Source: Escherichia coli (GTDB lineage Bacteria; Pseudomonadota; Gammaproteobacteria; Enterobacterales; Enterobacteriaceae). From it: DNA of 64,000 bases. Both the position numbers and the translations under genes were made by a program. The notes beneath the pieces were generated by a model, which saw only the letters and a list, made by a program, of their open reading frames with translations, had not been told where the DNA came from and made no database searches. Positions 22,701-50,480 of this stretch are shown piece by piece. Where the stretch lies: the NCBI RefSeq assembly GCF_011045215.1, contig NZ_CP049201.1; one strand, 5' to 3'. Position 1 is the first letter of the stretch, and each line of letters begins with the position of its first letter.

Positions 22701-23017
22701 TCCTTTATCTGATTTGATTTATCAACTAAACCGCACGCTTCTCGCTCACAGCGGACCTTTAGCTCGTTCGCTTCGTGCCAGAAACCTTGGCAAAGCCATG
22801 GCTGATGTTATTCAGCTCCAGAAATTGGCTGCGTATAACAGCCCGCTTGCCGTTTGGCTTTTCAGGGCGATTTCAGTAATTGTAACTGCTGCGATGTTCC
22901 CCGAACACGTGGCAGAGTGTGACCACAGGATACTGCGCTTTGAGTTTCCCGATTAATGAGAATTGTTCGGGGAGTCTGGCATCAGGATCGTGGCAGCCTT
23001 CCTGAGAAACTCCCGGT

Positions 23018-31556: not shown

Positions 31557-31963
31557 AAAAAGCTCGGCGAATAATATGGATTGCCCCGTTGAGGAAAATT
31601 GACAGACGAGTCAGACCTGACAATGCTGCCGGTTCTGTGTGCTTTGAGCTGAAATCCTTATCTGGCAACGTATTAACAAGGTCTTTGTGCTAAGGAAAAG
31701 TTTATGGAAAAAGATCTGAAAAGTGCTTACTGCAAACTGAATAAATCTTACTTTTTTCTTACTTGTTTGACTTCTTTTTAGACTGAACGTAGGGTGCATT
31801 TGAATGAGAGGATAGTGCTGTTTGATTGATCAATAATAAAAATTCAGTACAGTGACGGAATATCTTATTTTATTATTGTCATACACTTCAGCGCGCCGGG
31901 CCGATCATTAGCAGAGAGAGATTATTCATAGAGATAACGAAGAAACCCTATCGTTAAAGTAGA

Positions 31964-32719: not shown

Positions 32720-33198
32720 TTACGATGACGGTCATTGCGCTGGTGCTGATCGTGATATTTGGCAGAAACGGGTGGAGTGTTCAGCGAAATGTTATGAATG
32801 TGGATAATTTTATTTGTACATCTAAATCAATAGTTTATATTGAACCTATGAAGATGAAACTGCGTGGTACGTTTGTGCTGGATCTTGAGTCAGACCGAAT
32901 CGCCATTCATTATGAAGTTGAACAGGCGGATCATAAGGAAAAACTTTTTTTCCAGGATGTTCATATCAGTAAATTACTCCGAACAGGTATCAGAACGTTC
33001 ACATTTAAAGTCAGCTCAGTAAATAAATTTTCTGCTGATTCAACCGGAGATATGTTTTCCTGGTTACGTCTCCTTCAACCCGGTACGGTGAATGAGTTGA
33101 ATATTGTCCAGATCGGTCAAAATGCATATCTGTATTCGTTGAACAGGCATTTATATAATATTTGTACGACAAGCACCAACGCGGTGAATACGCACTAA
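32692..33198 (+). CDS. ToxS/TcpH-like bitopic partner protein of the upstream regulator
   Basis: 168-aa ORF overlapping the upstream gene by 28 nt; N-terminal TM helix (VLITMTVIALVLIVIF) followed by a soluble, presumably periplasmic, domain. Confidence 0.55.
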   Translation: MFNHKRTVLITMTVIALVLIVIFGRNGWSVQRNVMNVDNFICTSKSIVYIEPMKMKLRGTFVLDLESDRIAIHYEVEQADHKEKLFFQDVHISKLLRTGIRTFTFKVSSVNKFSADSTGDMFSWLRLLQPGTVNELNIVQIGQNAYLYSLNRHLYNICTTSTNAVNTH

Positions 33199-33396
33199 TA
33201 GCTGTGTAATGGCCGGTCTATATGGGCATTGTGGCGGGTGTTGATAACGGAAGGGACTATTACATGTCCAATTTCGTCTGGAGCTGGCCTGTGTTAATAT
33301 GAACGCTGAAGGTTCCGTAAGGCTCTTAACTCAGTGCCTGGCAAGGCTGTACAACGGCAGAATCGGATACTCAATGAATAAATTGCAGAAGAAACC

Positions 33397-34137
33397 ATGA
33401 GCGAGCAAAAGTATCTTATCGACAATCGCGTGATATTTGATTCTGAGCGTATGTCATTGACTCACTCAGACAAAACGGTGAGCATTTCAGAATCCGAAAC
33501 GAATTTGCTGCTTGCTTTCTATAAGGGGTTATTCAAAAAGGATGATTTAATCGGCTGGGTCTGGGGGCGTAAGGGAGTCGTAGTTTCTGATGCCAGCTAT
33601 TATAAGCTCATCAATCAGTTACGTAATACTTTCGACAAAATAGGTCTACCGCCCTCATCTGTGGTGACGCGGCCCAAAGTCGGCGTTGAGCTGGTTTTAT
33701 CCATCACGCTCATTAAGCCTGCGACTCCCCGACAACCTGCTGCTGAACCGGTAGAACACTCAGCCGAATCCTTCAGCGAAACCCCGACAATACATGAACA
33801 CAATAAAACCGCTGTAGCAGGCCAGAGAGACTGGCTTTTTCTGGTATTGGCCGCGCTGTTGATGATCGCAGGATTTGGCGCCAGTCTGTGGGAGAGCCAT
33901 CCCTACTTTTCAGTGCCCGTTACCCATGACGGTTACTATTTTTATAAAGTAAGTAACGATAAAACGTCCTTCGAGGATGTGGCTGCGGCCTATGCAGAAT
34001 TGACAATTCCGGTGATTAAGCAGAATGGACGTCATATTTACTATATCAGAGTGCCGGATACCCATATTTTCGTCCAGTGCCTCAACCCACTCACCGTAGC
34101 GGAGCCAAAATGTATTACCCTAAAAGAACGTTATTAA
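33397..34137 (+). CDS. ToxR/CadC-like membrane-bound transcriptional regulator, paralogue of 31964..32719
   Basis: YLIDNRVIFDSERMSL...ESETNLLLAFYKGLFKKDDLIGWVWG...VSDASYYKLINQLRNTF...TRPKVGVEL is a clear paralogue of the first regulator; TM segment LFLVLAALLMIAGFGASLW. Confidence 0.7.
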   Translation: MSEQKYLIDNRVIFDSERMSLTHSDKTVSISESETNLLLAFYKGLFKKDDLIGWVWGRKGVVVSDASYYKLINQLRNTFDKIGLPPSSVVTRPKVGVELVLSITLIKPATPRQPAAEPVEHSAESFSETPTIHEHNKTAVAGQRDWLFLVLAALLMIAGFGASLWESHPYFSVPVTHDGYYFYKVSNDKTSFEDVAAAYAELTIPVIKQNGRHIYYIRVPDTHIFVQCLNPLTVAEPKCITLKERY

Positions 34138-34598
34138 GAATATTCACCGTGTTCTTTATTCTCGTCTCCGTGATGTTATGGGTACAGGTAATAAAGAAGC
34201 ACGCGGTCAGTCACCCCTCCGCGGGCAATTTTTTCTGTGCCACCAAAACGATAAGCAACATACAGGCGAAGGGGATAACCGTTGCGGGGGATATTGTCAT
34301 CGACTTCAAAACGCAACGTATTACGTTACAGCATGATGTGAAACAGCATAATAATGCGCATAGCCTGTTATATCGGGATGTTTACATGAAAAATCTGCGG
34401 CGCGTCACTGACGATCTTTTTACGTTTGAGATTGATTCTGTAAAGATATTTCCTGATGACAATGTCGGGAATTTTTTCTCCTATTTTCGCCTGCTCCATC
34501 CGGGGGGCCGCAACGAATTGCGAATTCAACGCATTGGCGAGAAAACCTATCTTTTTTCGCTTAATCGTCAGATTTATAACGTCTGTACAGCAAGTTGA
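34110..34598 (+). CDS. ToxS/TcpH-like bitopic partner protein, paralogue of 32692..33198
   Basis: Start placed at the internal Met (MYYPKRTLLRIFTVFFILVSVMLW) so that it overlaps the upstream gene by 28 nt exactly as in the first pair; C-terminal region paralogous (..YLFSLNRQIYNVCTAS versus ..YLYSLNRHLYNICTTS). Confidence 0.55.
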   Translation: MYYPKRTLLRIFTVFFILVSVMLWVQVIKKHAVSHPSAGNFFCATKTISNIQAKGITVAGDIVIDFKTQRITLQHDVKQHNNAHSLLYRDVYMKNLRRVTDDLFTFEIDSVKIFPDDNVGNFFSYFRLLHPGGRNELRIQRIGEKTYLFSLNRQIYNVCTAS

Positions 34599-34878
34599 AC
34601 TGCACAGGAATGCCCCGAGAGATTCTCTGAGGCCGTATGATAAGAGAGCGGTAAGCGGTAAGGTAACTGAAAGCTCATTACTTATTTAAATACATGGGTT
34701 TATATCAATCGTTCTGATTCTGTTCAACAGTGACAGAGTGAGATTATGATTTTTGTAAGATCTTCTTCCAGACTTTATCTGCCCTGATTAGCTATATTTT
34801 CGCCGCTGTAAACGGACATCAGAATACGTTTAAGTAGTCGTAATTAATGCTTTTTTCAATAAGATAAAGAGGGAGTAT

Positions 34879-35424
34879 TTGTCCATGTCTACGCGACTTC
34901 GTGGCGCTGCAATAATTTGTTTTTGTCTGCTAGCCTCATCTCAGAGTATGGCTAGTGGCACACATACGGTATCAATGGGGTATGCTCAAACACATCTGAG
35001 CGCATTAAAAAGCTCGAACAGCAAAGATCTTCATGGCTTTAATATAAAATATCGCTACGAGTTTGACGAACGCTGGGGCTTTATTGGTGCGTTAACGGCG
35101 ACTCGCCACGAAGTTGAGCATTATAGCTGGCAATCAGCAAAATTAAAAAAAGAGGGTACCGATACCATTGATTATAGTTCGGTAATGTTTGGCCCAACTT
35201 ATCGCTTTAATGATTACATCAGCCTGTATGGCAATGCAGGTATGGCGAGAATGAAAATGAAAAATACTCACTCAAACGAATCAACGGATGATTCGTTTGC
35301 ATACGGGGCCGGGGTAATATTTAACCCGTTAACCAACCTATCGCTTGATCTTTCCTGGGAAGCGTCAAAATTCTATTCTGTCGATGCCAATACGTTTGGC
35401 GTAAGCGTTGGCTATCGCTTTTAA
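34879..35424 (+). CDS. Ail/Lom/OmpX/PagC-family eight-stranded outer membrane beta-barrel protein
   Basis: Signal peptide, alternating amphipathic beta-strands, C-terminal ...FGVSVGYRF ending in Phe; family pattern GYAQT...FNIKYRYEF. Confidence 0.75.
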   Translation: MSMSTRLRGAAIICFCLLASSQSMASGTHTVSMGYAQTHLSALKSSNSKDLHGFNIKYRYEFDERWGFIGALTATRHEVEHYSWQSAKLKKEGTDTIDYSSVMFGPTYRFNDYISLYGNAGMARMKMKNTHSNESTDDSFAYGAGVIFNPLTNLSLDLSWEASKFYSVDANTFGVSVGYRF

Positions 35425-35485
35425 AAATTGTACTCCCAGGGAGTGGGGATAAGTAAAATCATATTAAAGAAATTAAGGTTTATCC

Positions 35486-35842
35486 ATGAAATATATATTA
35501 CCAGCTCTTTTTACGGTGTTTTTAACCGCCTGTAGCGCTAACTCATTACATTCGGGGGCGGAACGGGTTCGTGTGACTCATAACGAGCCTGGAAAAGAGT
35601 GTTCGTGGTTAGGCGACATCACTGGCAGCCAGGGCAACTTTTTTACCGGAGGTTGGACCTCGAACAGTAACCTCGAAACAGGCGCGCGGAATGATATGAA
35701 AAATCAGGCCTGGAAAATGGGTGGAAATGTTGTTGTGCTGCTAACGCAACGCGCAGGGCAAACAGGCAGTTCGTACAATGGCAGTGGTTCAAGTCAGCAA
35801 ACTAACGTGACGCTAAGCGGATCGGTCTACCGTTGCCCATAG
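35486..35842 (+). CDS. Small lipoprotein (118 aa)
   Basis: Signal peptide with lipobox (FLTACSAN), Gly/Ser-rich mature part. Confidence 0.6.
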   Translation: MKYILPALFTVFLTACSANSLHSGAERVRVTHNEPGKECSWLGDITGSQGNFFTGGWTSNSNLETGARNDMKNQAWKMGGNVVVLLTQRAGQTGSSYNGSGSSQQTNVTLSGSVYRCP

Positions 35843-36018
35843 TCTACTATATTTCATTGATGAACAGAGAGCAGATATCAACATTGACGATTGCGGTCTG
35901 CTCTGATTCATAAATGTCATAAAGGAATGATATTTCATTTTTTTGAAGGTTATTATGATAATTTCTTTTATGCCGGAAAATATATCTTATATTACTTGTG
36001 GGTATGTTGTTGTAAGGT

Positions 36019-36594
36019 ATGGATATACATTTTAAAGCACAATCTCCTGAGGCAGTAACGCTCGCCGTGTGGCCAGATAATAATCCTCTGTTCACTGACT
36101 CTCTTGCCCATTTGATCACCGAAATAAACGTAATAAATCGCGTAGAAGATTTTCTTTTCGTCAATTTTTGCATCGATAACTTTATATACTTTATTCATGA
36201 TGAGTGGCTTGAAAAGTTGAACAAGTCAGGCCTGAGGGGGGTGCTGGTTATTGACCGTTTTATGCATTCGCTGGCGAATTATTGGCGTGAAAAACAACAG
36301 GATATTATCTTGTTATCGGTTGGCGATCGGGACCTGACGTCATTTGTATCGGCCCTGAATAGCCTGTCTTATGGACAAAGCAGGGTGCTAGAAGATGTCA
36401 TGCCGATAACAGAAAAAGAAATTTTTGTGTTACGTAAACGCCTCTCCGGTATGTCCGTAAGAAATATCGCACTCACCCTTAATTGCTCGGTTAAAAGTAT
36501 TTATTATTGCCAGTATTCTTTATTAAAAAAATTGAGGCGTTCGTCACGAATAGGCGAGATTTATATCCATCACTCTCACGTGCATGAGACTTAG
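36019..36594 (+). CDS. LuxR/FixJ-type HTH transcriptional regulator (191 aa)
   Basis: C-terminal HTH EKEIFVLRKRLSGMSVRNIALTLNCSVKSIYYCQYSLLKKL fits the LuxR-type pattern; no receiver-domain motifs recognised in the N-terminal part. Confidence 0.6.
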   Translation: MDIHFKAQSPEAVTLAVWPDNNPLFTDSLAHLITEINVINRVEDFLFVNFCIDNFIYFIHDEWLEKLNKSGLRGVLVIDRFMHSLANYWREKQQDIILLSVGDRDLTSFVSALNSLSYGQSRVLEDVMPITEKEIFVLRKRLSGMSVRNIALTLNCSVKSIYYCQYSLLKKLRRSSRIGEIYIHHSHVHET

Positions 36595-36798
36595 TCGTTA
36601 GCCTGTTTTTTCTGGCGGAATGACGGCATAACCCGGAAGGGATATGCCGCCTGCTTCAGCCTATCACGCCATCAACGCAAAAACTCCCCAGCCAAAATAC
36701 TCCCGGCTGTAGGTAACATTACGCATCGGCGCCGCGCTTAACTCTGCCCGAACCTCAAGCGCGAAACCTGATCCTACCCACGTAATATGGACACAGGC

Positions 36799-37665
36799 CT
36801 AAGCGAGGTTCTGGTTTTCAAATTGTTCCGGACTGAGGCCGCCACACCAACTGTGCCGCCGCCACCGATTGTAATCACATTCGATATAATTAAACACCGT
36901 TGCCCGCATTATTTCCCGGCTGATAAAGTGTTCTCCATGGATACATTCCACTTTCAGCGAATGAAAGAAGCTTTCCACGCAGGCATTATCGTAGCAGCAA
37001 CCTTTTGCGCTCATACTTCCACGCAGATTATGCCGCTTCAGTTGCGCCTGATAATCTGCTGAACAGTACTGGCCTCCACGGTCCGTGTGAACGATAACGT
37101 TCCGGGGCCTCTTACGCCGCCACAGCGCCATCTGCAGGGCATCGCAGGCCAGTTGCGCCGTCATGCGTGGCGACATTGACCAGCCAATAACGGCACGTGA
37201 CCACAGGTCAATGACCACTGCCAGATACAGCCAGCCTTCATCTGTACGTAAGTACGTGATGTCTCCTGCCCACTTCTGGTTCGGGCCACTGGCGTAAAAA
37301 TCCTGCTCCAACAGATTTTCTGACACAGGCAGGCCGTGTGCGCGGTAGCTGACCGGGCTGAACTTCCGGGAGGCCTTTGCCCTCAGTCCCTGACGGCGCA
37401 GGCTTGCCGCCACGGTTTTTACGTTAAAGGGGTAACCCTGAGCACGCAGTTCATCCGTCAGGCGTGGGGCACCGTAACGCTGTTTTGACCGGGTAAAAGC
37501 CGCGAGGACAACGCTGTCGCAGTGTTGGCGGAACTGCTGACGCGTGCTTATCCTTGTCCGCCGCTGACACCACGTATACCAGCCGCTGCGGGCCACCCGG
37601 AGCACGCGGCACATTGCTTTGATGCTGAACTCAGCCTGATGTTTTTCAATAAAGACATACTTCAT
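36799..37665 (-). CDS. insF: IS3 transposase OrfB (DDE integrase-type catalytic domain)
   Basis: 288-aa ORF with DDE-domain residues (...WAGDITYL..., ...[10 protein letters not shown]...) inside the IS3 element. Confidence 0.9.
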
Positions 37666-37970
37666 TTCAGGCGCTTCGCGAAGTATGTCGCGGCCTTTTG
37701 GAGGATAGCCAGCTCTTCATCCCGTTCTGCCAGCTGGCGTTTGAGACGTGCAATCTCGGTAGACATCTCCAGTTCACGTTCAGAAGACGTCTGCTGATTT
37801 TGCTGTTTACTGCGCCAGTTGTAGAGCTGTGATTCATACAGGCTGAGTTCACGGGCTGCGGCAGTAACACCGATGCGTTCAGCAAGCTTCAGGGCTTCAC
37901 TGCGAAATTCAGGCGAATGCTGTTTACGGGGTTTTTTACTGGTTGATACTGTTTTTGTCATGTGAGTCAC
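37662..37970 (-). CDS. insE: IS3 transposase OrfA (HTH protein)
   Basis: 102-aa [55 protein letters not shown]... inside the IS3 element. Confidence 0.9.
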
Positions 37971-38042
37971 CTCTGACTGAGAGTTTACTCACTTAGCCGC
38001 GTGTCCACTATTGCTGGGTAAGATCACATCGCTATTAATATT

Positions 38043-38150
38043 TTGACGAATGATAAGGTATTCAAGGCAGGGTTAAGACGTAAGATGCGAAAAGCAGCCA
38101 TGGACAGAAACTATCTCGCGTCAGTACTTGCGGGGAACTGGCTTTCGTAA
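38043..38150 (+). pseudogene. 3'-terminal fragment of an ISAs1-family (H-repeat-associated) transposase gene
   Basis: Translates to [35 protein letters not shown], matching the conserved C-terminus of ISAs1/H-repeat transposases; truncated right next to the IS3 end. Confidence 0.75.
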
Positions 38151-38337
38151 TCTTGCCCTGATCCCGATAGCGGTCTAATTATTTATAGCACAAGTGGTTT
38201 TTCAATGAATGGGGAAGATCAAGTGAAAAATAATATTCATTAAAAATTGAATAAAATTGAGAGAAGTATATCTCTTTTTAAAAAAGATCCTATTACTTGA
38301 TAGAAGTAATGGTAATTTATGATATGTTCTTATTACA

Positions 38338-38589
38338 TTGAAGAGTATAACTCTTTCCAAAACAGAATTAACATCATCCGTTCTTAAGCAATATCGATTG
38401 GAACTTCTGAAGTATCATGTTGAACTTGTTGAGTTATTTAATAAATATTATATTGTGAATTATAATCCTCAAAGACCCTATCGTATGCATATGTTTCCTC
38501 CTGTGGATGCGGTAGATGGACTTGTGTTTGGTGAAGTGGACCTGAGTAGAATTAGAGATAATATGAATCAGATCTCAAGGAGAATATAA
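38338..38589 (+). CDS. Hypothetical small protein (83 aa), AT-rich, upstream of the PAAR gene
   Basis: ORF only; no recognised motif. Confidence 0.3.
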   Translation: MKSITLSKTELTSSVLKQYRLELLKYHVELVELFNKYYIVNYNPQRPYRMHMFPPVDAVDGLVFGEVDLSRIRDNMNQISRRI

Positions 38590-38906
38590 GAATTGGAAAG
38601 GAGCTTTCCTTTCAGGCTGCTTTAACTTCGGTAAAATACGTTCTTGAAGCACCAGATAATAAAGTCGGTAATATTGCCACTATTGAGTTTTTCATCAAGG
38701 TTAATTACGAGAATAACCCTTCTGATAAAGCTGAAGTTGAGAAGGTGCTTAATGAATCAGAACTGAAGAATGCTCTTAAGTCCAGAATTCTTGATGATAC
38801 TGTCAGGCAACACAGATGATTAAATCATCTGGATGTATTTAATGCATAAACATTTCTGAATGATACATAAAAATTGTATTTAATGTTTCCCTCCTGGAGA
38901 ATCTCT

Positions 38907-39191
38907 ATGCCCACAGCAGCCAGACTCAGCGATAAAGGCACCCAGCATGACGGTTATTATGAGACCACCATTATTGCAGGCTCCTCCACCGTCTTTATTG
39001 ATGGTATGCCCGCCGCCCGTCAGGGCGATCCGCTGACACCGCATTCCAAACCTGACCATCCCCCTCACCCCCGTAAAATCGCAGGCGGCTCTGCCACTGT
39101 CTTTATTGACGGTAAACCTGCCGCCAGAACCGGCGATGCCATTGACTGTGGCGGCGTGGTTATCGGTGGCGGCACGGTAAATATAGGCTGA
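38907..39191 (+). CDS. PAAR-domain protein (T6SS spike tip)
   Basis: 94-aa protein with PAAR repeats (DGMPAARQGDP, DGKPAARTGDAIDCGG); start placed at the internal Met preceded by GGAGA; immediately upstream of vgrG. Confidence 0.85.
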   Translation: MPTAARLSDKGTQHDGYYETTIIAGSSTVFIDGMPAARQGDPLTPHSKPDHPPHPRKIAGGSATVFIDGKPAARTGDAIDCGGVVIGGGTVNIG

Positions 39192-39211
39192 TTAATTATC
39201 AGGGAGGCTGT

Positions 39212-41611
39212 ATGCCCTCAGAAGGATTACGTTTCACGCTGTCGGTGGACGGTATCGTGGAGATGGCGACGGCGGTGGTGAGCTTCCGTCTGTACCAGCA
39301 CCACTGCACGCCGTTCATCCTGGATGTGGATATCGCCAGCGGGCTGTCTGACCTGACGGCGGAGGATTTTCTGGAGAAGAGCGCGGTGCTGACGGTCTGG
39401 CAGGGTGATATCCCGCAGCGTTACGTCAGCGGTATCGTGACGGAGGTGCAACTGGGGGAGAACAACGACTGGCAGATGCGTTATTCCCTGAGCATCAGCC
39501 CGCCGCTGTGGCGGGCAGGGTTACGGCAGAACTTCCGTATCTTCCAGCAGCAGGACATCCAGACGATATCAGCACAGCTTCTGAGAGAGAACGGAGTGAC
39601 GGCATGGATGCCGCTGTTTTATGAAGACCATCCGGCGCGGGAGTTCTGTGTGCAGTACGGGGAAAGCGACCTGGCGTTTCTGGCGCGGCTGTGGGCGGAG
39701 GAGGGGATTTTCTTCTTTGAGCGGTTTGCGGCGGACAGTCCGGAGCAGAAGCTGACGCTGTGCGACGATGTGGCGGGGCTGTCACAGGCGGGAGAGCTTC
39801 CGTTTAACCCGGACACATCGGCAGGAGCGGAGACGGAGTGTCTCAGTACGTTCCGTTATGAGGCGCATGTCCGCCCGTCGTCGGTGCAGAGTCAGGATTA
39901 CACGTTTAAGGTGCCGGACTGGCCGGGGATGTATGAGCAGCAGGGTGAGAACCTGAACGGACAGCTGGCGCAGTACGAGATATTTGATTATCCGGGAAGG
40001 TTCAAGGATGAGCAGCACGGCAAGGATTTCACGCTGTACCAGATGGACAGCCTGCGCAGTGATGCGGAAAAGGCCACAGGGCAGAGTAATTCACCGAAGC
40101 TGTGGCCGGGAACGCGGTTTACGCTGACGGGGCATCCGCAGAAGATGCTGAACCGTGAATGGCAGGTGGTACAGAGCATACTGTCAGGAAGCCAGCCGCA
40201 GGCGCTGCACGGCAGCCAGGGGAGGGGAACCACGCTGGGAAATCAGTTAGAGGTGATACCGGCAGACCGGACGTGGCGTCCACGGCTGCAAAGCAAACCG
40301 AAGGTGGACGGGCCGCAGAGTGCCATTGTGACCGGGCCGAAGGGTGAGGAGATATTCTGCGACGAACATGGCCGGGTACGGGTGAAGTTCCACTGGGACC
40401 GTTATCACGGGATGACGGAGGCGAGTTCATGCTGGGTGCGGGTATCGCAGGCGTGGGCGGGGCCGGGGTTCGGTAACCTGGCGATACCGCGGGTGGGCCA
40501 GGAGGTGATTGTTGACTTCCTGAACGGCGACCCGGACCAGCCCATCGTCACGGGACGGACCTACCATGAAGATAACCGCTCCCCGGGCGACCTGCCGGGA
40601 ACGAAGACGCAGATGACGATACGGTCGAAGACCTATAAAGAAAGCGGATTTAACGAGTTGCGGTTTGAAGACGCCACCAGTAATGAGCAGGTGTATATCC
40701 ACGCGCAGAAGAACATGGATACGGAGGTGCTCAACGACCGGACAACGGATGTGAAGCATGACCATACGGAGACCATTGGTAACGACCAGAAGATAACGGT
40801 GGTGAAGGGGCAGACGGTTGAGGTCGGGACCAGAAAAGAAGGAGGCCACGACCAGAGTATCACGGTGGCGAACGACCGGAGCATAACGGTACGTAACGAC
40901 CAGACGCTGAAGGTGACAAATGACCGGACGGTGAGCGTGAGTCACGATGACGGTCTGTACGTCAGAAATGACCGTAGGGTGACGGTGAAAGGGAAGCAGG
41001 AGCATAAGACGACGGGTAACCACATCAGCCTGGTGGAGGGGAAGCACAGCCTGGAGGTGAAGGGGGACCTGGCGGAGAAGGTGAGTGGCGCGCTGGGGAT
41101 AGAAGTGGACGGGGATATCGTGCTGGAGAGCAGCAGCCGGATAAGCCTGAAGGTGGGTGGCTCGTTTATCGTCATTCAGCCGGGCGGAGTGGATATTGCC
41201 GGGCCGAAGATAAACCTGAACGGTGGGGGCAGTGCGGGGACACCGGTGGGGACGATGCAGCCGGCGGTGCTGGAGGCTCCGGAGGATGAGAGCAGTGATG
41301 ATGGCAGTGATGACTCCGGAGAGGATAGTGGCAATCCCGCAGGGAGTGACGGAGGAGGTGATGGCGGTGACGATGAAGATGATCCTGAAAAATATACCCT
41401 CCAGTTCCATTTTACGGACGATGACGGGATACCGTATTCAGAGACGCAGTATATTGCCTTTTTTGAGGATGGCACACAGACGCGTGGTGAAACAGACAGA
41501 GAGGGATATACAGAAATATTTTATACAGATACAGCACAGGAAATTAAAGTCCAATTGTTATTTTCGGATGCTTTTTATATTGAGCCGGAGGGGCATTATG
41601 GCAGGGAATAA
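39212..41611 (+). CDS. vgrG: Type VI secretion spike protein VgrG (799 aa) with an acidic linker and a small C-terminal extension domain
   Basis: Gp27-like N-terminal region, gp5-like OB-fold and beta-helix (WAGPGFGNLAIPRVGQEVIVDFLNGDPDQPIVTGRTYHEDNR; repeated ...NDRT/ITV... units), then an Asp/Glu/Gly/Ser-rich linker and a roughly 70-aa C-terminal domain. Confidence 0.92.
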   Translation: MPSEGLRFTLSVDGIVEMATAVVSFRLYQHHCTPFILDVDIASGLSDLTAEDFLEKSAVLTVWQGDIPQRYVSGIVTEVQLGENNDWQMRYSLSISPPLWRAGLRQNFRIFQQQDIQTISAQLLRENGVTAWMPLFYEDHPAREFCVQYGESDLAFLARLWAEEGIFFFERFAADSPEQKLTLCDDVAGLSQAGELPFNPDTSAGAETECLSTFRYEAHVRPSSVQSQDYTFKVPDWPGMYEQQGENLNGQLAQYEIFDYPGRFKDEQHGKDFTLYQMDSLRSDAEKATGQSNSPKLWPGTRFTLTGHPQKMLNREWQVVQSILSGSQPQALHGSQGRGTTLGNQLEVIPADRTWRPRLQSKPKVDGPQSAIVTGPKGEEIFCDEHGRVRVKFHWDRYHGMTEASSCWVRVSQAWAGPGFGNLAIPRVGQEVIVDFLNGDPDQPIVTGRTYHEDNRSPGDLPGTKTQMTIRSKTYKESGFNELRFEDATSNEQVYIHAQKNMDTEVLNDRTTDVKHDHTETIGNDQKITVVKGQTVEVGTRKEGGHDQSITVANDRSITVRNDQTLKVTNDRTVSVSHDDGLYVRNDRRVTVKGKQEHKTTGNHISLVEGKHSLEVKGDLAEKVSGALGIEVDGDIVLESSSRISLKVGGSFIVIQPGGVDIAGPKINLNGGGSAGTPVGTMQPAVLEAPEDESSDDGSDDSGEDSGNPAGSDGGGDGGDDEDDPEKYTLQFHFTDDDGIPYSETQYIAFFEDGTQTRGETDREGYTEIFYTDTAQEIKVQLLFSDAFYIEPEGHYGRE

Positions 41612-42401
41612 TAATACTAGTGGGACTTCACAACCCGAGTCGCAAGTATGTGTAGTACCGCAAAAAATTACAAATAAATTTAAAATAATGATGAGTAAGG
41701 CTTGTAAAGCACAGAAAATGGTTTTATTGAAAAGAGCAGATGATATTATGTCATGGGAGGGGGAACAACAACGAGATTTTATTAAAGTTTTTGGCCTTAA
41801 AGGCGAGGACATTATAAAAATCAGAAAGGTTGGGGAAGATACTGGGAAACGAATGCAAGCGAGACTATTCATAATGGATGGCATCAGACAAATAATGACG
41901 ATTGCAAATGGTTTGACGATCGAAAGCTATAAAGATTATACGAACTGCAATGAATTTGCTGCTTTTATTAGTCCACATCTTGATCCTCCTTACATTGTAA
42001 ATATCGGAGCGCATTTTGAATACAGACATGGTATAAAACAGTCGGTTACAGGTAGAGACTCTCATGTAAGTACACTTTGCCATGAAATGTCCCATATATT
42101 TTGGTATTGGGGTGACAATCAAAAAGGTGGTATGTGGACTCAGGATTATACGGGTATTAATAAGTTCGCAACAAGTAATAAGGATGAAGTTAGCTATGAG
42201 AAACATGTTTCAGTGGCTAATGATCTGGTTACATTGCGTAAAGATCAGTTATTTGAGAATGCATATAATGTTGAAAGATATTTTTATATAAAATTAAATG
42301 ATGAAGATATTGAAGCTCAAGATGAGAATATGTTAGCAAAAAAAGTAGAGGATAAAATAAAAGAGATAGAAAAATGTTTTGATGAGTTGATGGGGAAATA
42401 A
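41598..42401 (+). CDS. Putative T6SS effector: uncharacterised protein with an HExxH zinc-metallopeptidase-like motif (267 aa)
   Basis: Start ATG lies within the last 14 nt of vgrG (translational coupling); contains CHEMSHIFWYWGDNQKGGMWTQDYTG (HExxH followed by conserved Asp residues); abrupt drop in GC content relative to vgrG; followed by a secreted-protein gene. Confidence 0.6.
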   Translation: MAGNNNTSGTSQPESQVCVVPQKITNKFKIMMSKACKAQKMVLLKRADDIMSWEGEQQRDFIKVFGLKGEDIIKIRKVGEDTGKRMQARLFIMDGIRQIMTIANGLTIESYKDYTNCNEFAAFISPHLDPPYIVNIGAHFEYRHGIKQSVTGRDSHVSTLCHEMSHIFWYWGDNQKGGMWTQDYTGINKFATSNKDEVSYEKHVSVANDLVTLRKDQLFENAYNVERYFYIKLNDEDIEAQDENMLAKKVEDKIKEIEKCFDELMGK

Positions 42402-42402
42402 G

Positions 42403-43242
42403 ATGAAGAGGTTGGCTTTCTATAATCTAAATTATGTTGTACTGATGGTTTTTTTTCTTTGTTTTTTGCCATTATCTATTGCAATTGCAATAGATAATGA
42501 GAATCTTTTTGTAAAAAAATACAGATTCGGTTTTGAACGAAGAAATGACAATGGGAAACCAATTATTTATCTTAGCCATAATTTAGCGCCAGAGGAAAAT
42601 ATAAGTAATGAATTAACAAATGATGTTGTTGTTAAATTGGTGGTTAAGCCACATGCTGAAAATATTTTAGCTACTATAACTTTTTATAACAGTAGTACTA
42701 AATCGTATTTTCTCCCCAGAATATATTATCCAAAGAACTTCCAAAAAGGAAATGGAGATGTATTTGATGCTTTGTGTGATGACGAATTCTTGATTACATC
42801 AGGAAATATTAGCTTAGACTATCTAGGAGGCTTTTGTCCCTTTGAGCTTGATTTGAATTTGAGCCGATGGGTGGAAATTACGGCAGGTAAAAAAATATCT
42901 TTTGATGTAAAATTGAATGATATGCATTCATTTCTCCCCAGTTTAAATAATTATCATATAAAAACATTAAACTACAAACTTGTTAGGAGAAAATGGTTTG
43001 TATTAAAATCAATTAATGAAACATTCCTCTCTATTTTGATGAAAAGATACTCATGTAATGAATATGATTTTAGAGCTATATCATTTAGTGGAGAGGGATG
43101 TGATAATTATGAATTTGATAAAAATACGTTTTTTTTTGTTAATCAAATATTAGATAAAGATGATGAGCAACATTCTGTTCATATTAGGTCTAATGAATTT
43201 TCCATCAATATCGATGGAAGCTTGGTAAAGCAACCTTATTGA
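42403..43242 (+). CDS. Putative cognate immunity protein (279 aa, N-terminal signal peptide or membrane anchor)
   Basis: Begins 1 nt after the effector stop; hydrophobic N-terminus (VVLMVFFLCFLPLSIAIAI) suggests periplasmic localisation; AT-rich like the effector gene. Confidence 0.5.
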   Translation: MKRLAFYNLNYVVLMVFFLCFLPLSIAIAIDNENLFVKKYRFGFERRNDNGKPIIYLSHNLAPEENISNELTNDVVVKLVVKPHAENILATITFYNSSTKSYFLPRIYYPKNFQKGNGDVFDALCDDEFLITSGNISLDYLGGFCPFELDLNLSRWVEITAGKKISFDVKLNDMHSFLPSLNNYHIKTLNYKLVRRKWFVLKSINETFLSILMKRYSCNEYDFRAISFSGEGCDNYEFDKNTFFFVNQILDKDDEQHSVHIRSNEFSINIDGSLVKQPY

Positions 43243-43304
43243 TTAAAATGTATCGCAGGTTTTATTTTCTGTAATGCTGGTGCATGTGCGTAAATATTTC
43301 TTAA

Positions 43305-43730
43305 GAGCCGGAAACACCTCTTCCGCCTTTATCGACGATAAACCTACCGCCAGAACCGGTGATGCCATTGACTGCGGTGGCGTGGTTAAAGGTGGAGGGC
43401 GATGTGGTGCTGGAGAGCAGCAGCCGGATAAGCCTGAAGGTGGGCGGCTCGTTTGTGGTCATCCATTCAGGGGGCGTGGACATCGTCGGGCCGAAAATCA
43501 ATCTCAATAGCGGCGGTAGTCCGGGAACGCCGGTGCCGACGCTGCAACCGGCGGTTCTGAAAGCGCTGGCAGATGATAAAAGTTTAGCGGCTGAGCAAAA
43601 TGATAGTAATGCATCGTCCGATCAGAATGATAACAACGATGAGGGTGAGGAAGCGCCAGAAAAATCGGTGTGTAAGGAGTGCCTGAAAAGGGCGCAAGAA
43701 GCCGCCGCCGTTTTTGCGCCTCGTGGATAA
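43305..43730 (+). pseudogene. PAAR-vgrG deletion-fusion remnant (3' end of a PAAR gene joined to the 3' end of a second vgrG)
   Basis: 43309..43392 closely matches the PAAR 3' end at 39092..39175 (...FIDDKPTARTGDAIDCGGVV...); from about 43393 the sequence matches vgrG at about 41110..41245 (VLESSSRISLKVGGSF.V.....GGVDI.GPKINLN.GG) and then continues into a different C-terminal tail. Confidence 0.8.
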
Positions 43731-43736
43731 GGGAGA

Positions 43737-44506
43737 ATGACAATGATAACAGTATCGCCACACGCTACCGATCAAGACAAATATATTATCTGGCTGAAGC
43801 AAGCTGAATCATTCTGTTCTGCCGCTGGTTTGGATTACATAGATGTGCTTGTTGACCAGGCTGGAACCGACCAACCTTTGCAAAATGATATGCTTCATCT
43901 GTCGCCAGCCATTCACTGGTATGCCCTGTTTGAAGGAACGCCTGAAGCTGAGACGATGGAGTATTCCCCTGTAGTGTTACGCCTGTACTTTGCGCTCAGT
44001 AGCCATCGCAAATTTCTGGCACAACTGATGGCGTCATTTGCTGATACGCCGCGTCTTACTTTGTTGATATCCCCTCTTACATTCGACCTGCTGGGCGGCA
44101 TCTTCAGGTATTGTCACAGGTTCAGTGGGAAGAACAGACCGGATTGCTGCGTTACTATGATAATCGGGTGTTCCCTTTACTGTTCACACATGTTTTGACT
44201 AACGAGCAGCAGGCGACATTTACTGATATTGCGTTGTTCTGGAGCTGGTTAGACCGTGATGGTGAGATTAACTGGAAATCAGGAAGTTTTTCACCAGAAC
44301 GCAGGCTTACTGACAACCCGGAGATGAATCGGGTGGATGATGTACAGGTGGGATTGATGGGCTGTATCTGCGACGCTGAAGTCCTGATGAAGGAGAAAGC
44401 AGTCAGTGAACTCAGTCAGGAAAGCTATTTTGCCCACTGTCTTGATATTGCTTTCAGGGCCAATGACGCGAAATATTTCGGAGCTTTGCGGGACTTCGAA
44501 GGATAA
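43737..44506 (+). pseudogene. T6SS adaptor/chaperone-like gene (DUF4123-type, Tap/Tec family), split across two overlapping reading frames
   Basis: Two overlapping ORFs (43737..44198 and 44111..44506) together span about 256 codons, in the adaptor position between a vgrG 3' end and a DUF2235 effector gene; family assignment is by position and recalled sequence character. Confidence 0.5.
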
Positions 44507-44819
44507 TATTGTGGTGATGTACGGGGAGATTTATCTGTTTAAAAGTCCGTAGCTGTTAATATCAAGAGATAATCGTGAAATAAACGGAAAATCAAGCTCG
44601 ACATGTAATGGTAGTATCCATCATGTTGCATTTGTGTTCGATCGTAATGTCAGTTCACTTGGCTGCAATATATTTTGCGTAATATCATCAATGCTCTGTC
44701 GATATTCCAATGTGTGACAATCGAAAGATATGCATTTTATTTGCTTCTATGTCAAAACTTTATTGTCGTAGAAACAATACCCATCAATTAAAATCTCTCA
44801 AAGTAAAAGAACCAGCAAC

Positions 44820-45362
44820 ATGTCCAGCAAAATAAGAAATGGAATGAATATAACAAAAGTAGTTAAAGGCTGTCTGGTATTAATTTTGATGGTGATTTCT
44901 GGTTGCTCAGCAGATAATTACGACGATTATACTGCAGGTGATCTCCGGGCAATAAATCATATTAAAGGTATCAGTATTAATTGGTTCACCGTAAATGGTT
45001 ATCGGGTCCATGGTTTGGGCGGTGGATATTGCTGCATAATGTTACCAAAGAAGTGGCATTCTGGATTAAAAGCCCGGATCGAGTGGGAAGTAGACCCGAC
45101 CCCCCTTGAACCTATTGCAATGAAAAAAGAAGGTTTTGGCTATGAAGAAGATGCTTATGCTAAACATGCTGCAAATTATCAAAAATATAAAGTAATTGTT
45201 GACATCCCGGAATACGGCGCTGAACGTTGTGGCCTGACCGTTCATTTTCTGCCGTGTAATCAGATTAAAGTGACAACCGTCTGCGAGGGCTATGGCACAC
45301 CGAATTATCCTATCAAAGAACCCCGCGAGATGAAGGAACCTGCAACATGTCCAGCAAAATAA
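44820..45362 (+). CDS. Lipoprotein (180 aa), candidate Tle1-associated immunity or accessory protein (DUF3304-like)
   Basis: Signal peptide with lipobox (LILMVISGCSADN); directly upstream of and overlapping the Tle1-like gene. Confidence 0.55.
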   Translation: MSSKIRNGMNITKVVKGCLVLILMVISGCSADNYDDYTAGDLRAINHIKGISINWFTVNGYRVHGLGGGYCCIMLPKKWHSGLKARIEWEVDPTPLEPIAMKKEGFGYEEDAYAKHAANYQKYKVIVDIPEYGAERCGLTVHFLPCNQIKVTTVCEGYGTPNYPIKEPREMKEPATCPAK

Positions 45363-47440
45363 GTGGTCTGGCTTTTCCGTGTTATGCCCCCCCGGTGTTC
45401 CCTGAAGATGGGCGATTAATATTATCTGAAGCGCAGGTAAACGCGAACTACCTAAAACAAATCAATAAAACAGAAGAGCACAAAACCAACTGTAGTAAAC
45501 AGGCTGGATTTAGAATTGGCTTTACGTGTAATCAAAGTATGCATATTAGTCTGTTTTTTGATGGTACAAATAATAATGAATATAATGACACTCCTGGACA
45601 CCCAACCAATATTGCCAAACTGTTTCATACGACCTATCAGAACGCAGAAGAACAGGGATATTTTAACTACTATATACCGGGTGTAGGCACACCATTTCCC
45701 AAGATAGGTGAAATGGATTACAGCAACAGCGGGCTGGAGTTCGCTACTGGTGGTGAAGATCGAATTAATTGGGCATTATTACGCCTCGTGGATGCCCTGA
45801 GCTATTCCATTGACCCTTCCCATAAGCGACTGGATGATAATGTGGCAAAAGAGCACATTCCTCTTATGCGCGCTCCCTGGCCTATGACTGGTGAAGTGAA
45901 TCGTCGCAATGTGATTAACCCCTACCTGGAAAAATTACAGGGACTGTTAGAGCAAGCCAGTCCGCGCCTGCTAAACGTAAAGCTGTTTATCTACGGATTT
46001 TCCCGTGGCGCAGCGGAAGCACGAACTTTTGTTAACTGGTTGACTCAGTTAGCTTGCCCGCAGGAGCAACAGGTGATGCTGGCCGGGTTAGCTGTCAGTA
46101 TTGAGTTTTTGGGGCTGCTGGATACCGTAGCTTCTGTGGGGGCGGCGCATGTTTTACCGGGCGCTGCCGGTCATATGGGATGGGCCGATAGTACTCAGCA
46201 ACTCCCTGATGAGAGGCAGTTTCCCGGCCTGATTAAATGCTGCCGCCACTTCGTTGCCGCGCATGAGCAGCGGCTGTGCTTTCCGCTGGATTCAATCCGT
46301 CGTCCAGACGGAAATTATCCTTTAAATGCAGAGGAAATTATCTATCCGGGGATGCACTCTGATGTCGGTGGTGGCTATCCCGTTCGCGATCAGGGGAAGT
46401 CCTGTGGTGACTCAGGCGAAATTCTTTCTCAGATAGCACTGCATGATATGTATCTTGCTGCATTTGATTCAGGAGCACCACTTGCTGTTTATTCTAAATT
46501 TGTTACTCCATTAATAAAAGGTGTGTCGCCTCTGCGAATTATGAGTCCTTCTAGCGTAAAGGAATTTACGATTGCTAATTCATTAACAAAACGCTTCAAC
46601 ATCTGGCGACAAACGCTGCTGAACACCACCTTGCAGGGTACAGAAGAAATGATTGATACGAGGGAAGGTTATCACTCCTATCAACTTGCCCAGGTTCTTG
46701 AAAGCGCAATTAGCGATCAGATCGGCTGGATCACCGCCTGGCGTATCGGTCGCTATGCGAATAACAGCCTTCTTGTGCAACCTTTTTATATTAAGGCGCC
46801 ACAGCTGGATAAAGATGGACTTGATAAAGAGGCTAAAGCGCGTAAAGAACAAATGGAAAATATTGAAAAAGAGCGGGCGAACAAGCAGAAAGGGAATGGC
46901 ACACTTGATGAAAGTAATCAGGGCATTCCTATCCTTGACCCAACCAATGCTCAGTATCAGTTGCGAGAGGCAGCCCGAGAATTTCAGAGCGATTATAAAG
47001 GATGGACGCGCGATATTAACGGCAGCGTCATGGAGAAAGCCATTCAGATTCTTGTGGATGTCATTCCTAAATATCCGGTGTATCTGATTAATGGCGATGA
47101 TGAAGCAAAAGAATATCAGCAAATTAAGGCTATGGGAGACGGACTCTATCCACAATTTTTTATTGATTCACTGGGAACGGGAACGCGTACTCAGCCATGC
47201 GCTGAATTACTGGCCCTCTATGATGACCAGGTTCACGACTCCCGCGCCTGGTTTATGCAAAGTTCGCTGGGTGGACGTGAACCCTGGGGCGGTTATTTTC
47301 GCTACCGCATGATTTACTTCGGTGATGAGGCTAATAAAGAGCTGAAGCTAATCTCTGCAGATGGCAAAGTTGTTGGCGATCAGCCCACATCCAACCGGGT
47401 CATTTATTGGATGGAATCGAAAACGGTGAGCCGAGGTTAA
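45347..47440 (+). CDS. Tle1-family T6SS phospholipase effector (DUF2235 alpha/beta-hydrolase, 697 aa)
   Basis: DUF2235 hallmark ISLFFDGTNNNEYND...; nucleophile elbow GxSxG (IYGFSRGAAEAR); vgrG-adaptor-effector gene order. Confidence 0.75.
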   Translation: MSSKISGLAFPCYAPPVFPEDGRLILSEAQVNANYLKQINKTEEHKTNCSKQAGFRIGFTCNQSMHISLFFDGTNNNEYNDTPGHPTNIAKLFHTTYQNAEEQGYFNYYIPGVGTPFPKIGEMDYSNSGLEFATGGEDRINWALLRLVDALSYSIDPSHKRLDDNVAKEHIPLMRAPWPMTGEVNRRNVINPYLEKLQGLLEQASPRLLNVKLFIYGFSRGAAEARTFVNWLTQLACPQEQQVMLAGLAVSIEFLGLLDTVASVGAAHVLPGAAGHMGWADSTQQLPDERQFPGLIKCCRHFVAAHEQRLCFPLDSIRRPDGNYPLNAEEIIYPGMHSDVGGGYPVRDQGKSCGDSGEILSQIALHDMYLAAFDSGAPLAVYSKFVTPLIKGVSPLRIMSPSSVKEFTIANSLTKRFNIWRQTLLNTTLQGTEEMIDTREGYHSYQLAQVLESAISDQIGWITAWRIGRYANNSLLVQPFYIKAPQLDKDGLDKEAKARKEQMENIEKERANKQKGNGTLDESNQGIPILDPTNAQYQLREAAREFQSDYKGWTRDINGSVMEKAIQILVDVIPKYPVYLINGDDEAKEYQQIKAMGDGLYPQFFIDSLGTGTRTQPCAELLALYDDQVHDSRAWFMQSSLGGREPWGGYFRYRMIYFGDEANKELKLISADGKVVGDQPTSNRVIYWMESKTVSRG

Positions 47441-47697: not shown

Positions 47698-50480
<2,783 letters not shown>

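What the first reader, a model, noticed from the sequence alone, without database searches (positions are those of the whole stretch)
43737..44506. Adaptor-like gene between the vgrG remnant and Tle1 is split across two reading frames
The adaptor position is occupied by two overlapping ORFs in different frames (43737..44198 and 44111..44506) that together have about the length of one DUF4123-type protein. Either the adaptor is pseudogenised by a frameshift, which fits the cassette having lost its dedicated vgrG, or this is an assembly error or a genuine programmed frameshift.
Basis: seen in the sequence. Interest (0 to 1): 0.4.

Follow-up and report, generated by a model that had tools for sequence, protein, structure and literature searches.

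The report
Frameshifted T6SS adaptor gene tla1
The gene for the helper protein that loads the Tle1 lipase toxin onto the E. coli type VI secretion spike is broken here by a genuine, inherited one-base deletion, which makes it an ordinary pseudogene in a decaying toxin cassette.

Summary
ORFs 43737..44198 and 44111..44506 are the two halves of one gene, tla1, a DUF4123-type T6SS adaptor for Tle1. Aligned with intact E. coli orthologues of 765-771 bp, the window differs by a single indel: a GGGG run is GGG at 44093-44095 (codon 119/120). Putting the G back gives a 256-aa protein. That protein passes the NCBIfam Tla1 equivalog cut-off (221.5 against 200 bits). Its high-confidence model resembles only the solved T6SS adaptor Tap3. 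Neither half passes any cut-off.

It is not an assembly error. The same G3 allele, with an identical tla1 sequence, occurs in 12 other independent contigs (NCBI draft assemblies and assemblies of public sequencing runs). The window matches one of those assemblies with 4 differences over 14.1 kb.

It is not a programmed frameshift. There is no slippery heptamer, all 68 complete E. coli genomes that carry this stretch have G4, and about 120 homologues are almost all single ORFs of 245-270 aa.

The vgrG remnant also occurs next to an intact tla1 in other genomes, so the loss of vgrG came before the frameshift. In this window the T6SS core genes are also missing upstream, and an IS100 sits downstream. 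Verdict: an ordinary pseudogene of low interest.

The parts
43737..44506 (+). tla1 pseudogene (DUF4123-type T6SS adaptor/chaperone for Tle1). It is 770 nt, against 771 nt when intact. RefSeq annotators start the intact gene at the ATG equivalent to 43737 or to 43743.
   Evidence: Alignment A1 with three intact orthologues. After repair, NCBIfam Tla1 scores 221.5 bits against a cut-off of 200, and Pfam DUF4123 scores 57.3 bits.
44093..44095 (+). Site of the lesion. The run is GGG where all intact orthologues have GGGG. This -1 deletion falls at codon 119/120.
   Evidence: All 68 complete E. coli genomes that match this 61-mer differ from it by exactly this one gap.
43737..44198 (+). ORF1: native Tla1 residues 1-119 followed by 34 out-of-frame residues and a TGA stop.
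   Evidence: Pfam DUF4123 scores 23.5 bits (below the 25.8 cut-off) and NCBIfam Tla1 scores 89.6 bits (cut-off 200).
44111..44506 (+). ORF2: the native reading frame of Tla1 residues ~126-256. It has only a TTG start with a weak AGG two bases upstream. This frame is open from 44045.
   Evidence: NCBIfam Tla1 scores 117.1 bits on profile positions 109-232.
43384..43730 (+). vgrG 3' remnant: the last 114 codons of the VgrG that normally precedes tla1, including its C-terminal tail ...KECLKRAQEAAAVFAPRG.
   Evidence: 96% identity to residues 630-743 of the full-length VgrG of strain FDAARGOS_144. RefSeq annotates it as 'VgrG, incomplete, missing N-terminus' in relatives.
43327..43398 (+). 3' fragment of a PAAR gene fused to the vgrG remnant. 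The two homologies overlap by 15 bp (43384-43398), which marks the deletion junction.
   Evidence: 87.5% identity over 72 bp to PAAR gene positions 39101-39172. Pfam PAAR_motif E = 4e-4.
44820..45362 (+). tli1, a DUF3304 lipoprotein immunity gene. It is intact.
   Evidence: Pfam DUF3304 86.3 bits. NCBIfam Tli1a_fam 199.1 bits against a cut-off of 110.
45347..47440 (+). tle1 phospholipase effector. It is intact at 697 aa, with a GFSRG (GxSxG) motif at residues 217-221.
   Evidence: Pfam T6SS_Tle1-like_cat and T6SS_Tle1-like_C. Motif found. The length equals that in relatives.
39212..41611 (+). Intact mosaic VgrG of 799 aa. Its 5' end derives from an orphan PAAR-vgrG island, and its C-terminal tail differs from the one in the remnant.
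41598..43242 (+). M35 metallopeptidase effector (41598..42401) and a putative immunity gene (42403..43242). This cassette displaced the original vgrG.
   Evidence: RefSeq annotation of the collinear loci. Weak Pfam Aspzincin_M35 hit.
38907..39191 (+). Intact PAAR gene upstream of the mosaic vgrG.
   Evidence: NCBIfam T6SS_PAAR_dom 160.4 bits against a cut-off of 124. Collinear with the ET350 orphan island.
48276..50229 (-). IS100 (IS21 family; istA and istB) inserted downstream of tle1, with a 5-bp target duplication GCCAC. It is absent from every related locus examined.

Best explanation
The region is the E. coli orthologue of tla1. This gene encodes the DUF4123-family adaptor that bridges the C-terminal tail of a VgrG spike protein and the Tle1 phospholipase, so that the toxin is loaded onto the type VI secretion spike. 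In this strain's lineage one G was lost from a GGGG run at codon 119/120 (window 44093-44095).

Translation from the normal start therefore gives 119 native residues plus 34 nonsense residues. The product ends inside the DUF4123 domain. The C-terminal half, which in the P. aeruginosa homologue binds Tle1, is reachable only from a poor internal TTG start. The gene is a true, vertically inherited pseudogene.

The cassette had already lost the body of its cognate vgrG, displaced by a vgrG-M35 effector-immunity module, so the adaptor probably had nothing to dock onto. Its inactivation was then neutral or nearly so.

Shown here: the lesion, its derived state, its inheritance, and the disruption of the domain. 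Inferred: loss of adaptor function, and relaxed selection as the cause.
For: - **The lesion.** One indel separates the window from intact orthologues of 765-771 bp: G3 against G4.
- **Repair restores a family member.** The repaired protein passes the NCBIfam Tla1 equivalog cut-off (221.5 against 200 bits) and Pfam DUF4123 (57.3 against 25.8 bits). The halves fail both.
- **Fold.** The AlphaFold2 model of the repaired protein is confident (pLDDT 89.4, pTM 0.86). The break falls in helix 116-126, with beta-strands on both sides of it. The only significant PDB fold match is the T6SS adaptor Tap3, 9r8g_B, at E = 8e-8.
- **Derived allele.** 0 of 68 complete E. coli genomes carrying this stretch have G3.
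- **Real and inherited.** The G3 29-mer is present in 12 distinct other contigs: six NCBI draft assemblies and six Logan assemblies of sequencing runs. All have an identical tla1 sequence.
- **Assembly quality.** The window has 4 differences over 14.1 kb against GCA_910665095.1. The single indel among them is not at this site.
- **Cognate spike tail lost.** The remnant keeps only the last 114 codons of the cognate VgrG, and the intact VgrG in the window has a different tail.
- **Continuing decay.** A G3 sub-lineage carries tle1 Q103*. The window itself lacks tssB, tssC, tssE, tssF and hcp, which G3 relatives still have upstream.
- **Functional frame from the literature.** In P. aeruginosa, the N-terminal DUF4123 domain of Tla1 binds the VgrG4a C-terminal extension and its C-terminal part binds Tle1 (PMC13133936).
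Against: - No reads for this particular genome were available, so the allele is supported by shared inheritance rather than by read depth here.
- tle1 and tli1 are still intact in the window, and tla1 has gathered no further mutations in any G3 isolate. The event is therefore recent, and loss of function is inferred rather than measured.
- A tla1 next to the same vgrG remnant is intact in other genomes. This weakens the argument that the adaptor was already useless.
- Whether another vgrG with the matching tail, or another T6SS, exists elsewhere in this genome cannot be seen from the window.
Confidence: 0.93

Rival explanations
1. Sequencing or assembly error: the genome really has GGGG and an intact tla1.
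For: The lesion lies in a homopolymer, although a short one. One other public assembly with a different frameshift in this gene (P0008, GCA_013422845.1) has every neighbouring T6SS gene fragmented, which is typical of an error-prone assembly. Such artefacts therefore do exist for this gene.
Against: The identical G3 allele is in 12 other independent contigs, including assemblies of separate public sequencing runs. The neighbouring genes in the window are all full length. The window differs from an independent assembly at 4 positions in 14.1 kb.
Confidence: 0.02
2. Programmed -1 ribosomal frameshift or transcriptional slippage restores a full-length adaptor from the two frames.
For: The two ORFs overlap by 88 nt, and the downstream frame is open from 44045. 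A -1 shift anywhere in 44045-44198 would therefore join them.
Against: No X_XXY_YYZ heptamer occurs anywhere in ORF1. A run of three G is far too short for transcriptional slippage. The split is a derived state confined to one haplotype, while 68 of 68 complete genomes and about 120 homologues from Enterobacterales and Pseudomonas encode one continuous ORF. A shift far from the deletion would replace conserved residues.
Confidence: 0.02
3. The two fragments are both made and act as a split adaptor, or ORF2 alone chaperones Tle1.
For: In P. aeruginosa Tla1 the contacts with VgrG lie mainly in the N-terminal part and the contacts with Tle1 mainly in the C-terminal part (PMC13133936). NCBI pipelines have called the 131-aa ORF as a protein, WP_350472294.1.
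Against: The break is inside the DUF4123 domain, at Pfam profile position ~85-87 of 119. In the model it lies in a helix between strands of a confidently modelled fold with pTM 0.86. ORF2 has only a TTG start and a weak Shine-Dalgarno sequence. The cognate VgrG tail is itself on a dead remnant. A sub-lineage has gone on to lose tle1.
Confidence: 0.03
4. Phase variation: the G run switches between lengths to turn Tle1 loading on and off.
For: The indel is in a mononucleotide run.
Against: Runs of 3-4 bases are not known to give high-frequency slippage (established knowledge). The two alleles are not intermixed. G3 is confined to one haplotype with an identical tla1 sequence, and every other haplotype examined has G4.
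Confidence: 0.01

Closest known systems
Tla1 of Pseudomonas aeruginosa (PA3293), the type VI lipase adaptor for Tle1 (PMC13133936; NCBIfam NF053803)
   Same: The gene order is the same: vgrG, tla1 (DUF4123), DUF3304 immunity gene(s), tle1. The repaired window protein passes the Tla1 equivalog cut-off, and RefSeq already names the E. coli orthologue 'toxin Tle1 chaperone Tla1' in strain 23CRST027.
   Different: As encoded here the gene is split by a 1-bp deletion and neither half reaches the cut-off. The upstream vgrG is only a 114-codon remnant. The E. coli protein shares only about 30-40% identity with its Pseudomonas homologues.
DUF4123 adaptor/chaperone family (Tap-1/TEC of Vibrio cholerae, Tap-1 of Agrobacterium tumefaciens, Tap3 of Pseudomonas putida, PDB 9r8g)
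   Same: A DUF4123 domain, a position between vgrG and a cargo effector, and the same fold (Foldseek E = 8e-8 to 9r8g_B over 254 columns).
   Different: Only 9% sequence identity to Tap3. The cargo is Tle1 rather than Tke5, TseL or Tde1. The copy here is inactivated.
Tle1 of enteroaggregative E. coli (Sci-1 T6SS), loaded directly onto the VgrG C-terminal extension (Flaugnatti et al. 2016, cited in PMC7245790; otherwise from my own knowledge)
   Same: An E. coli Tle1-family phospholipase encoded next to vgrG and DUF3304-type immunity genes.
   Different: That system is described as binding VgrG directly without a DUF4123 adaptor. The cassette here has an adaptor gene in its intact relatives.
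Decayed T6SS-1 remnant loci of E. coli at the aspV/yafT-yafV site
   Same: The chromosomal site is the same, and tla1 and tle1 are inactivated piecemeal. For example, one widespread allele is a deletion that fuses vgrG codon ~527 to tla1 codon 112, with tle1 split into 330 + 362 aa (24 or more contigs).
   Different: The window carries a different and milder lesion, a single-base deletion, and still has tle1 and tli1 intact.

Membership tests
Tla1 (NCBIfam NF053803, equivalog) | Whole-protein score at or above the curated cut-off of 200 bits | tested here: not met
   As encoded, ORF1 scores 89.6 bits and ORF2 scores 117.1 bits. Only the in-silico repaired 256-aa protein passes, at 221.5 bits. 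The locus is therefore a tla1 pseudogene and does not encode a Tla1 protein.
DUF4123 T6SS adaptor family (Pfam PF13503) | A DUF4123 domain above the gathering score of 25.8 bits | tested here: not met
   ORF1 scores 23.5 bits on profile positions 4-87. ORF2 scores 17.9 bits on positions 85-117. The repaired protein scores 57.3 bits on positions 4-117.
DUF4123 T6SS adaptor family (Pfam PF13503) | Encoded directly downstream of a vgrG and upstream of a cargo effector with its immunity gene | tested here: met
   The order is vgrG remnant 43384-43730, tla1 43737-44506, tli1 44820-45362, tle1 45347-47440. With a full-length vgrG the same order is seen in FDAARGOS_144.
DUF4123 T6SS adaptor family (Pfam PF13503) | The fold of a solved adaptor | tested here: met
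The AF2 model has pLDDT 89.4. The sole significant PDB match is Tap3, 9r8g_B, with E = 8e-8 and TM-scores 0.57/0.51.
DUF4123 T6SS adaptor family (Pfam PF13503) | Binds the VgrG C-terminus and the effector, and is needed for effector delivery | not testable with these tools
   Known for homologues only (PMC13133936).
Inherited frameshift pseudogene | A derived indel relative to intact orthologues, shared by independent isolates | tested here: met
   The allele is G3, against G4 in 68 of 68 complete genomes. G3 is present in 12 other contigs with an identical gene sequence.
Programmed -1 ribosomal frameshift | A slippery X_XXY_YYZ heptamer in the overlap, and conservation of the two-frame arrangement among homologues | tested here: not met
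   No such heptamer occurs in ORF1. Homologues are single ORFs of 245-270 aa.

The most novel reading that the evidence does not exclude
Inactivation of tla1 might not be neutral decay but a selected way of disarming Tle1 once its cognate VgrG tail was lost, for example to stop unproductive or self-harmful toxin-adaptor complexes while immunity is kept. Alternatively, the separately translated C-terminal half might still chaperone Tle1 for adaptor-independent loading. My evidence does not formally exclude either reading, because no expression or secretion data exist for this allele.
Probability: 0.04. Interest if true: 0.35.

Novelty: already known. Interest (0 to 1): 0.1.

Why it matters
The practical value is mainly for annotation. 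The two ORFs should be merged and flagged as one frameshifted tla1 pseudogene, not reported as two hypothetical proteins. NCBI has already issued WP_350472294.1 for the 131-aa half. The Tle1 toxin of this strain should not be counted as a deliverable T6SS effector.

More broadly, the locus is a small, datable example of how E. coli T6SS-1 effector cassettes decay stepwise:
1. The spike gene was displaced.
2. The adaptor was frameshifted.
3. In some descendants the toxin was truncated. In this strain the core machinery was lost and an IS inserted.

The immunity gene survives throughout. None of this is unexpected for specialists.

Tried and rejected
- **Assembly error.** Rejected after exact-sequence look-ups found the truncated products in many independent assemblies and a 14.1-kb comparison showed no pattern of indels.
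- **Programmed frameshift.** Rejected: no slippery heptamer, and a derived, rare allele.
- **A hotspot of independent frameshifts around codons 110-120.** I considered this because other truncated cluster members (P0002, P0008, P0012) break within about 30 nt of this site. I did not adopt it, for two reasons. Clustering at 90% identity and coverage selects for breaks at similar positions. The one case inspected (P0008) sits in an assembly where every T6SS gene is fragmented, so it is probably a sequencing artefact.
- **PDB sequence search with the repaired protein.** It found nothing, even at E <= 10. The relationship to Tap3 appeared only by fold comparison.
- **Promoter and terminator scan of 43200-45400.** Uninformative: 7 promoter-like sites against 4.0 +/- 2.3 expected, and no terminator. 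Whether the premature stop is polar on tli1 and tle1 stays open.
- **Liang et al. 2015 (PMC4517263).** This paper, on the requirement for DUF4123 chaperones, is not held in the library. That point rests on my own knowledge.
- **Scans not run.** I did not scan metagenome or GTDB contigs for the G3 allele, because the existing 12 occurrences already settle the question.

Full report
**Observation**

The window has two + strand ORFs: 43737..44198 (153 aa) and 44111..44506 (131 aa). They lie in different frames and overlap by 88 nt. Both hit Pfam DUF4123 on complementary parts of the profile. ORF1 covers positions 4-87 of 119 and ORF2 covers 85-117, and each is just under the gathering score.
- a vgrG fragment upstream;
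- a DUF3304 immunity gene at 44820..45362;
- an intact 697-aa Tle1 phospholipase at 45347..47440, with its GFSRG motif at residues 217-221.

**What the gene is**

A megablast of 43200-45400 against 5,426 complete E. coli genomes found the same cassette in E. coli chromosomes. There the equivalent of the two ORFs is one gene of 765-771 bp. It is annotated 'DUF4123 domain-containing protein' or, in strain 23CRST027, 'tla1: toxin Tle1 chaperone Tla1'.

Aligning the window with three intact orthologues shows one indel in 783 columns. The orthologues read CTGCTGGGGCGGC and the window reads CTGCTGGGCGGC. The missing base belongs to a GGGG run, which is GGG at 44093-44095 and falls at codon 119/120.

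Reinserting one G gives a continuous 256-aa protein. Scores before and after repair:

| Protein | NCBIfam Tla1 NF053803 (cut-off 200 bits) | Pfam DUF4123 (cut-off 25.8 bits) |
|---|---|---|
| Repaired, 256 aa | 221.5 | 57.3 |
| ORF1, 153 aa | 89.6 | 23.5 |
| ORF2, 131 aa | 117.1 | 17.9 |

A database search with the repaired protein returned 136 homologues from Enterobacterales and Pseudomonas. Nearly all of the 120 listed are 245-270 aa. Two separate genes are therefore not a normal arrangement.

**Structure**

An AlphaFold2 model of the repaired protein, built on a 53-sequence alignment, is confident (mean pLDDT 89.4, pTM 0.86). Its only significant match among solved structures is the Pseudomonas putida type VI adaptor Tap3 in complex with the toxin Tke5: PDB 9r8g chain B, Foldseek E = 8e-8, 254 aligned columns, 9% identity. 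A sequence-only PDB search found nothing.

The frameshift falls in helix 116-126, directly after strand 107-111 and before strands 128-137 and 168-182. Neither fragment therefore contains a complete DUF4123 domain.

**Real mutation or artefact?**

None of the 68 complete E. coli genomes that match a 61-mer centred on the site is identical to it. All differ by exactly one gap, so all have G4.

Exact-sequence look-ups nevertheless found both truncated products in public collections. Retrieving their contigs gave 12 distinct loci that carry the G3 29-mer:
- NCBI assemblies GCA_009901295.1, GCA_009901285.1, GCA_910665105.1, GCA_910665095.1, GCA_053564595.1 and GCA_043872885.1;
- Logan assemblies of runs SRR11014969, SRR14062684, SRR10107306, SRR29525135, SRR8095702 and SRR31950803.

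The G4 30-mer is in the four intact comparison loci. In the ten G3 loci compared base by base (L004-L013), the tla1 sequence is identical to the window across 43731-44512.

Against GCA_910665095.1 the window has 4 differences in 14.1 kb. These include one indel, which lies in that assembly's copy of the 279-aa gene and not at this site. The window thus shows no pattern of homopolymer errors. The deletion is a genuine mutation inherited by a lineage.

For contrast, another frameshifted tla1 (P0008) sits in an assembly in which every T6SS gene is fragmented. That is what an assembly artefact looks like.

**Programmed frameshifting**

Joining the frames needs a -1 shift between 44045 and 44198. 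ORF1 contains no X_XXY_YYZ heptamer. Three G are too few for transcriptional slippage (established knowledge). The two-frame state is derived and confined to one haplotype. I reject this option.

**Context and likely history**

In the canonical E. coli T6SS-1 locus the order is tssC-tssB | hcp-vgrG-tla1-(DUF3304)n-tle1, as in FDAARGOS_144.

In the window and a minority of genomes (11 complete genomes cover at least 80% of the query) a different vgrG with an M35 metallopeptidase effector and a 279-aa partner gene sits in front. Only the last 114 codons of the original vgrG remain, at 43384-43730. They are 96% identical to residues 630-743 of the full-length protein.

That remnant is joined to a 72-bp 3' fragment of a PAAR gene (43327-43398). 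The two homologies overlap by 15 bp, which marks the junction of the deletion.

The intact 799-aa VgrG of the window has a different C-terminal tail. In P. aeruginosa, the N-terminal DUF4123 part of Tla1 binds the C-terminal extension of VgrG4a and its C-terminal part binds the catalytic domain of Tle1. The last 20 residues of VgrG4a also contact Tle1 (PMC13133936). By analogy, which is an inference, the Tle1-Tla1 pair in this arrangement had already lost its docking site unless a matching vgrG exists elsewhere in the genome.

The three genomes with this remnant arrangement that I inspected keep an intact tla1. Loss of the vgrG therefore came first, and the frameshift came later in one lineage.

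**Further decay**

- Among G3 isolates a sub-lineage (SRR8095702 and three further samples, and SRR31950803) has tle1 Q103*.
- The few other tle1 changes in the lineage are mostly non-synonymous: P11L, H85Y, S474R and T615I against one synonymous change. This is compatible with relaxed constraint, but the numbers are too small to test.
- G3 relatives GCA_053564595.1, GCA_043872885.1 and GCA_009901295.1 still have T6SS core genes directly upstream: tssF, tssE, tssC, tssB and hcp in the first two, and tssB and hcp in the shorter locus from the third.
- The window has no sequence matching those core genes. Instead an IS3 (about 36760-38026) abuts an ISAs1 fragment, an intact PAAR gene (38907-39191) and a vgrG 5' end. 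These are 96-99.8% identical to an orphan island located between yncG and pptA in strain ET350.
- An IS100 with a 5-bp GCCAC duplication is inserted at 48276-50229, downstream of tle1. It is absent from all relatives examined.
- A different and widespread E. coli allele fuses vgrG codon ~527 to tla1 codon 112 and has tle1 split in two (24 or more contigs). Degraded versions of this cassette are therefore common.

**Mechanistic conclusion**

Shown:
- a single-base deletion splits tla1 inside its DUF4123 domain;
- the allele is derived, real and inherited;
- the toxin and immunity genes remain intact in this strain.

Inferred:
- No functional adaptor is made. ORF1 lacks the part of the protein that binds Tle1 in the homologue, and ORF2 has only a TTG start with a weak ribosome-binding site.
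- Tle1 is therefore not loaded onto a spike.
- The mutation was tolerated because the cognate spike tail was already gone.

A promoter and terminator scan gave nothing above background, so possible polarity on tli1 and tle1 is unresolved.

**Comparison with known systems and novelty**

The gene belongs by descent to the Tla1 / DUF4123 (Tap/TEC) adaptor family, but as encoded it fails the family's score thresholds. It should be filed as a pseudogene of that family. Frameshifted accessory genes in decaying T6SS effector islands are routine, and the allele is already present in public assemblies. I rate it as already known and of low interest. The residual unusual readings, a selected disarming of Tle1 or a functional split adaptor, are not formally excluded, but I give them only a few per cent.

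Noticed in passing
window 43327-43730: The 'vgrG remnant' is really a scar made of two fragments. A 72-bp 3' fragment of a PAAR gene (87.5% identical to 39101-39172) is joined to the last 114 codons of vgrG. The two homologies overlap by 15 bp (43384-43398). This suggests a deletion across a short stretch of shared sequence that removed the end of PAAR and most of vgrG. RefSeq annotates only the vgrG part in relatives.
   Followed up: partly
window 36760-39600: The T6SS-1 core genes (tssF, tssE, tssC, tssB, hcp) stand upstream of vgrG in related loci but are absent from the window. Instead an IS3 abuts an ISAs1 fragment, an intact PAAR gene and a vgrG 5' end. These come from an orphan PAAR-vgrG island that lies between yncG and pptA in strain ET350. 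The 799-aa vgrG is therefore a mosaic of two loci. Whether this reflects replacement, deletion or a large inversion cannot be told from the window.
   Followed up: partly
window 48276-50229: An IS100 (IS21 family, istA and istB on the - strand) is inserted downstream of tle1 in an ISAs1-derived region, with a 5-bp target duplication GCCAC. It is absent from all related loci fetched, so it is specific to this strain or to a very close clade.
   Followed up: yes
L012 and L013 (equivalent to window 45653): Within the lineage that carries the same tla1 frameshift, a sub-lineage (at least five sequencing samples) has a C-to-T change that makes tle1 Q103*. The toxin gene is thus starting to decay after the adaptor.
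   Followed up: yes
L022-L024 (E. coli contigs, aspV/yafT-yafV locus): A widespread 434-aa product (24 or more contigs, including gut metagenomes) is a deletion fusion of VgrG residues up to ~527 with Tla1 from residue 112. It sits in a heavily decayed T6SS-1 remnant with tssM and vasL fragments and tle1 split into 330 + 362 aa. Its junction lies only ~25 nt from the frameshift site of the window. I did not test whether that proximity is more than chance or a clustering bias.
   Followed up: partly
window 44507-45362 compared with L002, L003 and L016: The number and identity of DUF3304 immunity genes between tla1 and tle1 vary among strains, from one to three copies, some of them frameshifted. 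The window keeps one copy, which corresponds to the tle1-proximal paralogue of FDAARGOS_944. Strain 23CRST027 keeps the other paralogue.
   Followed up: partly
window 22048-38026: A ~16-kb island is 99.9% identical to E. coli PapRG-06-5 from a baboon. By that strain's annotation it carries a 1403-aa autotransporter, an EAL-domain protein, several winged-helix regulators, an Ail/Lom protein and IS3 copies. It lies between the conserved rRNA / dnaQ-side region and the T6SS effector cassette, and it is absent at this position from most E. coli.
   Followed up: no
L020 (GCA_910665095.1), equivalent to window 43129: In this otherwise almost identical relative, the 279-aa gene downstream of the M35 effector (the putative immunity gene) has a 1-bp deletion and is called as 249 aa. 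GCA_043872885.1 has a 1-bp deletion at the position equivalent to window 42449, and its M35 effector gene is called in two pieces. Small indels are thus scattered through the cassette in different isolates.
   Followed up: no
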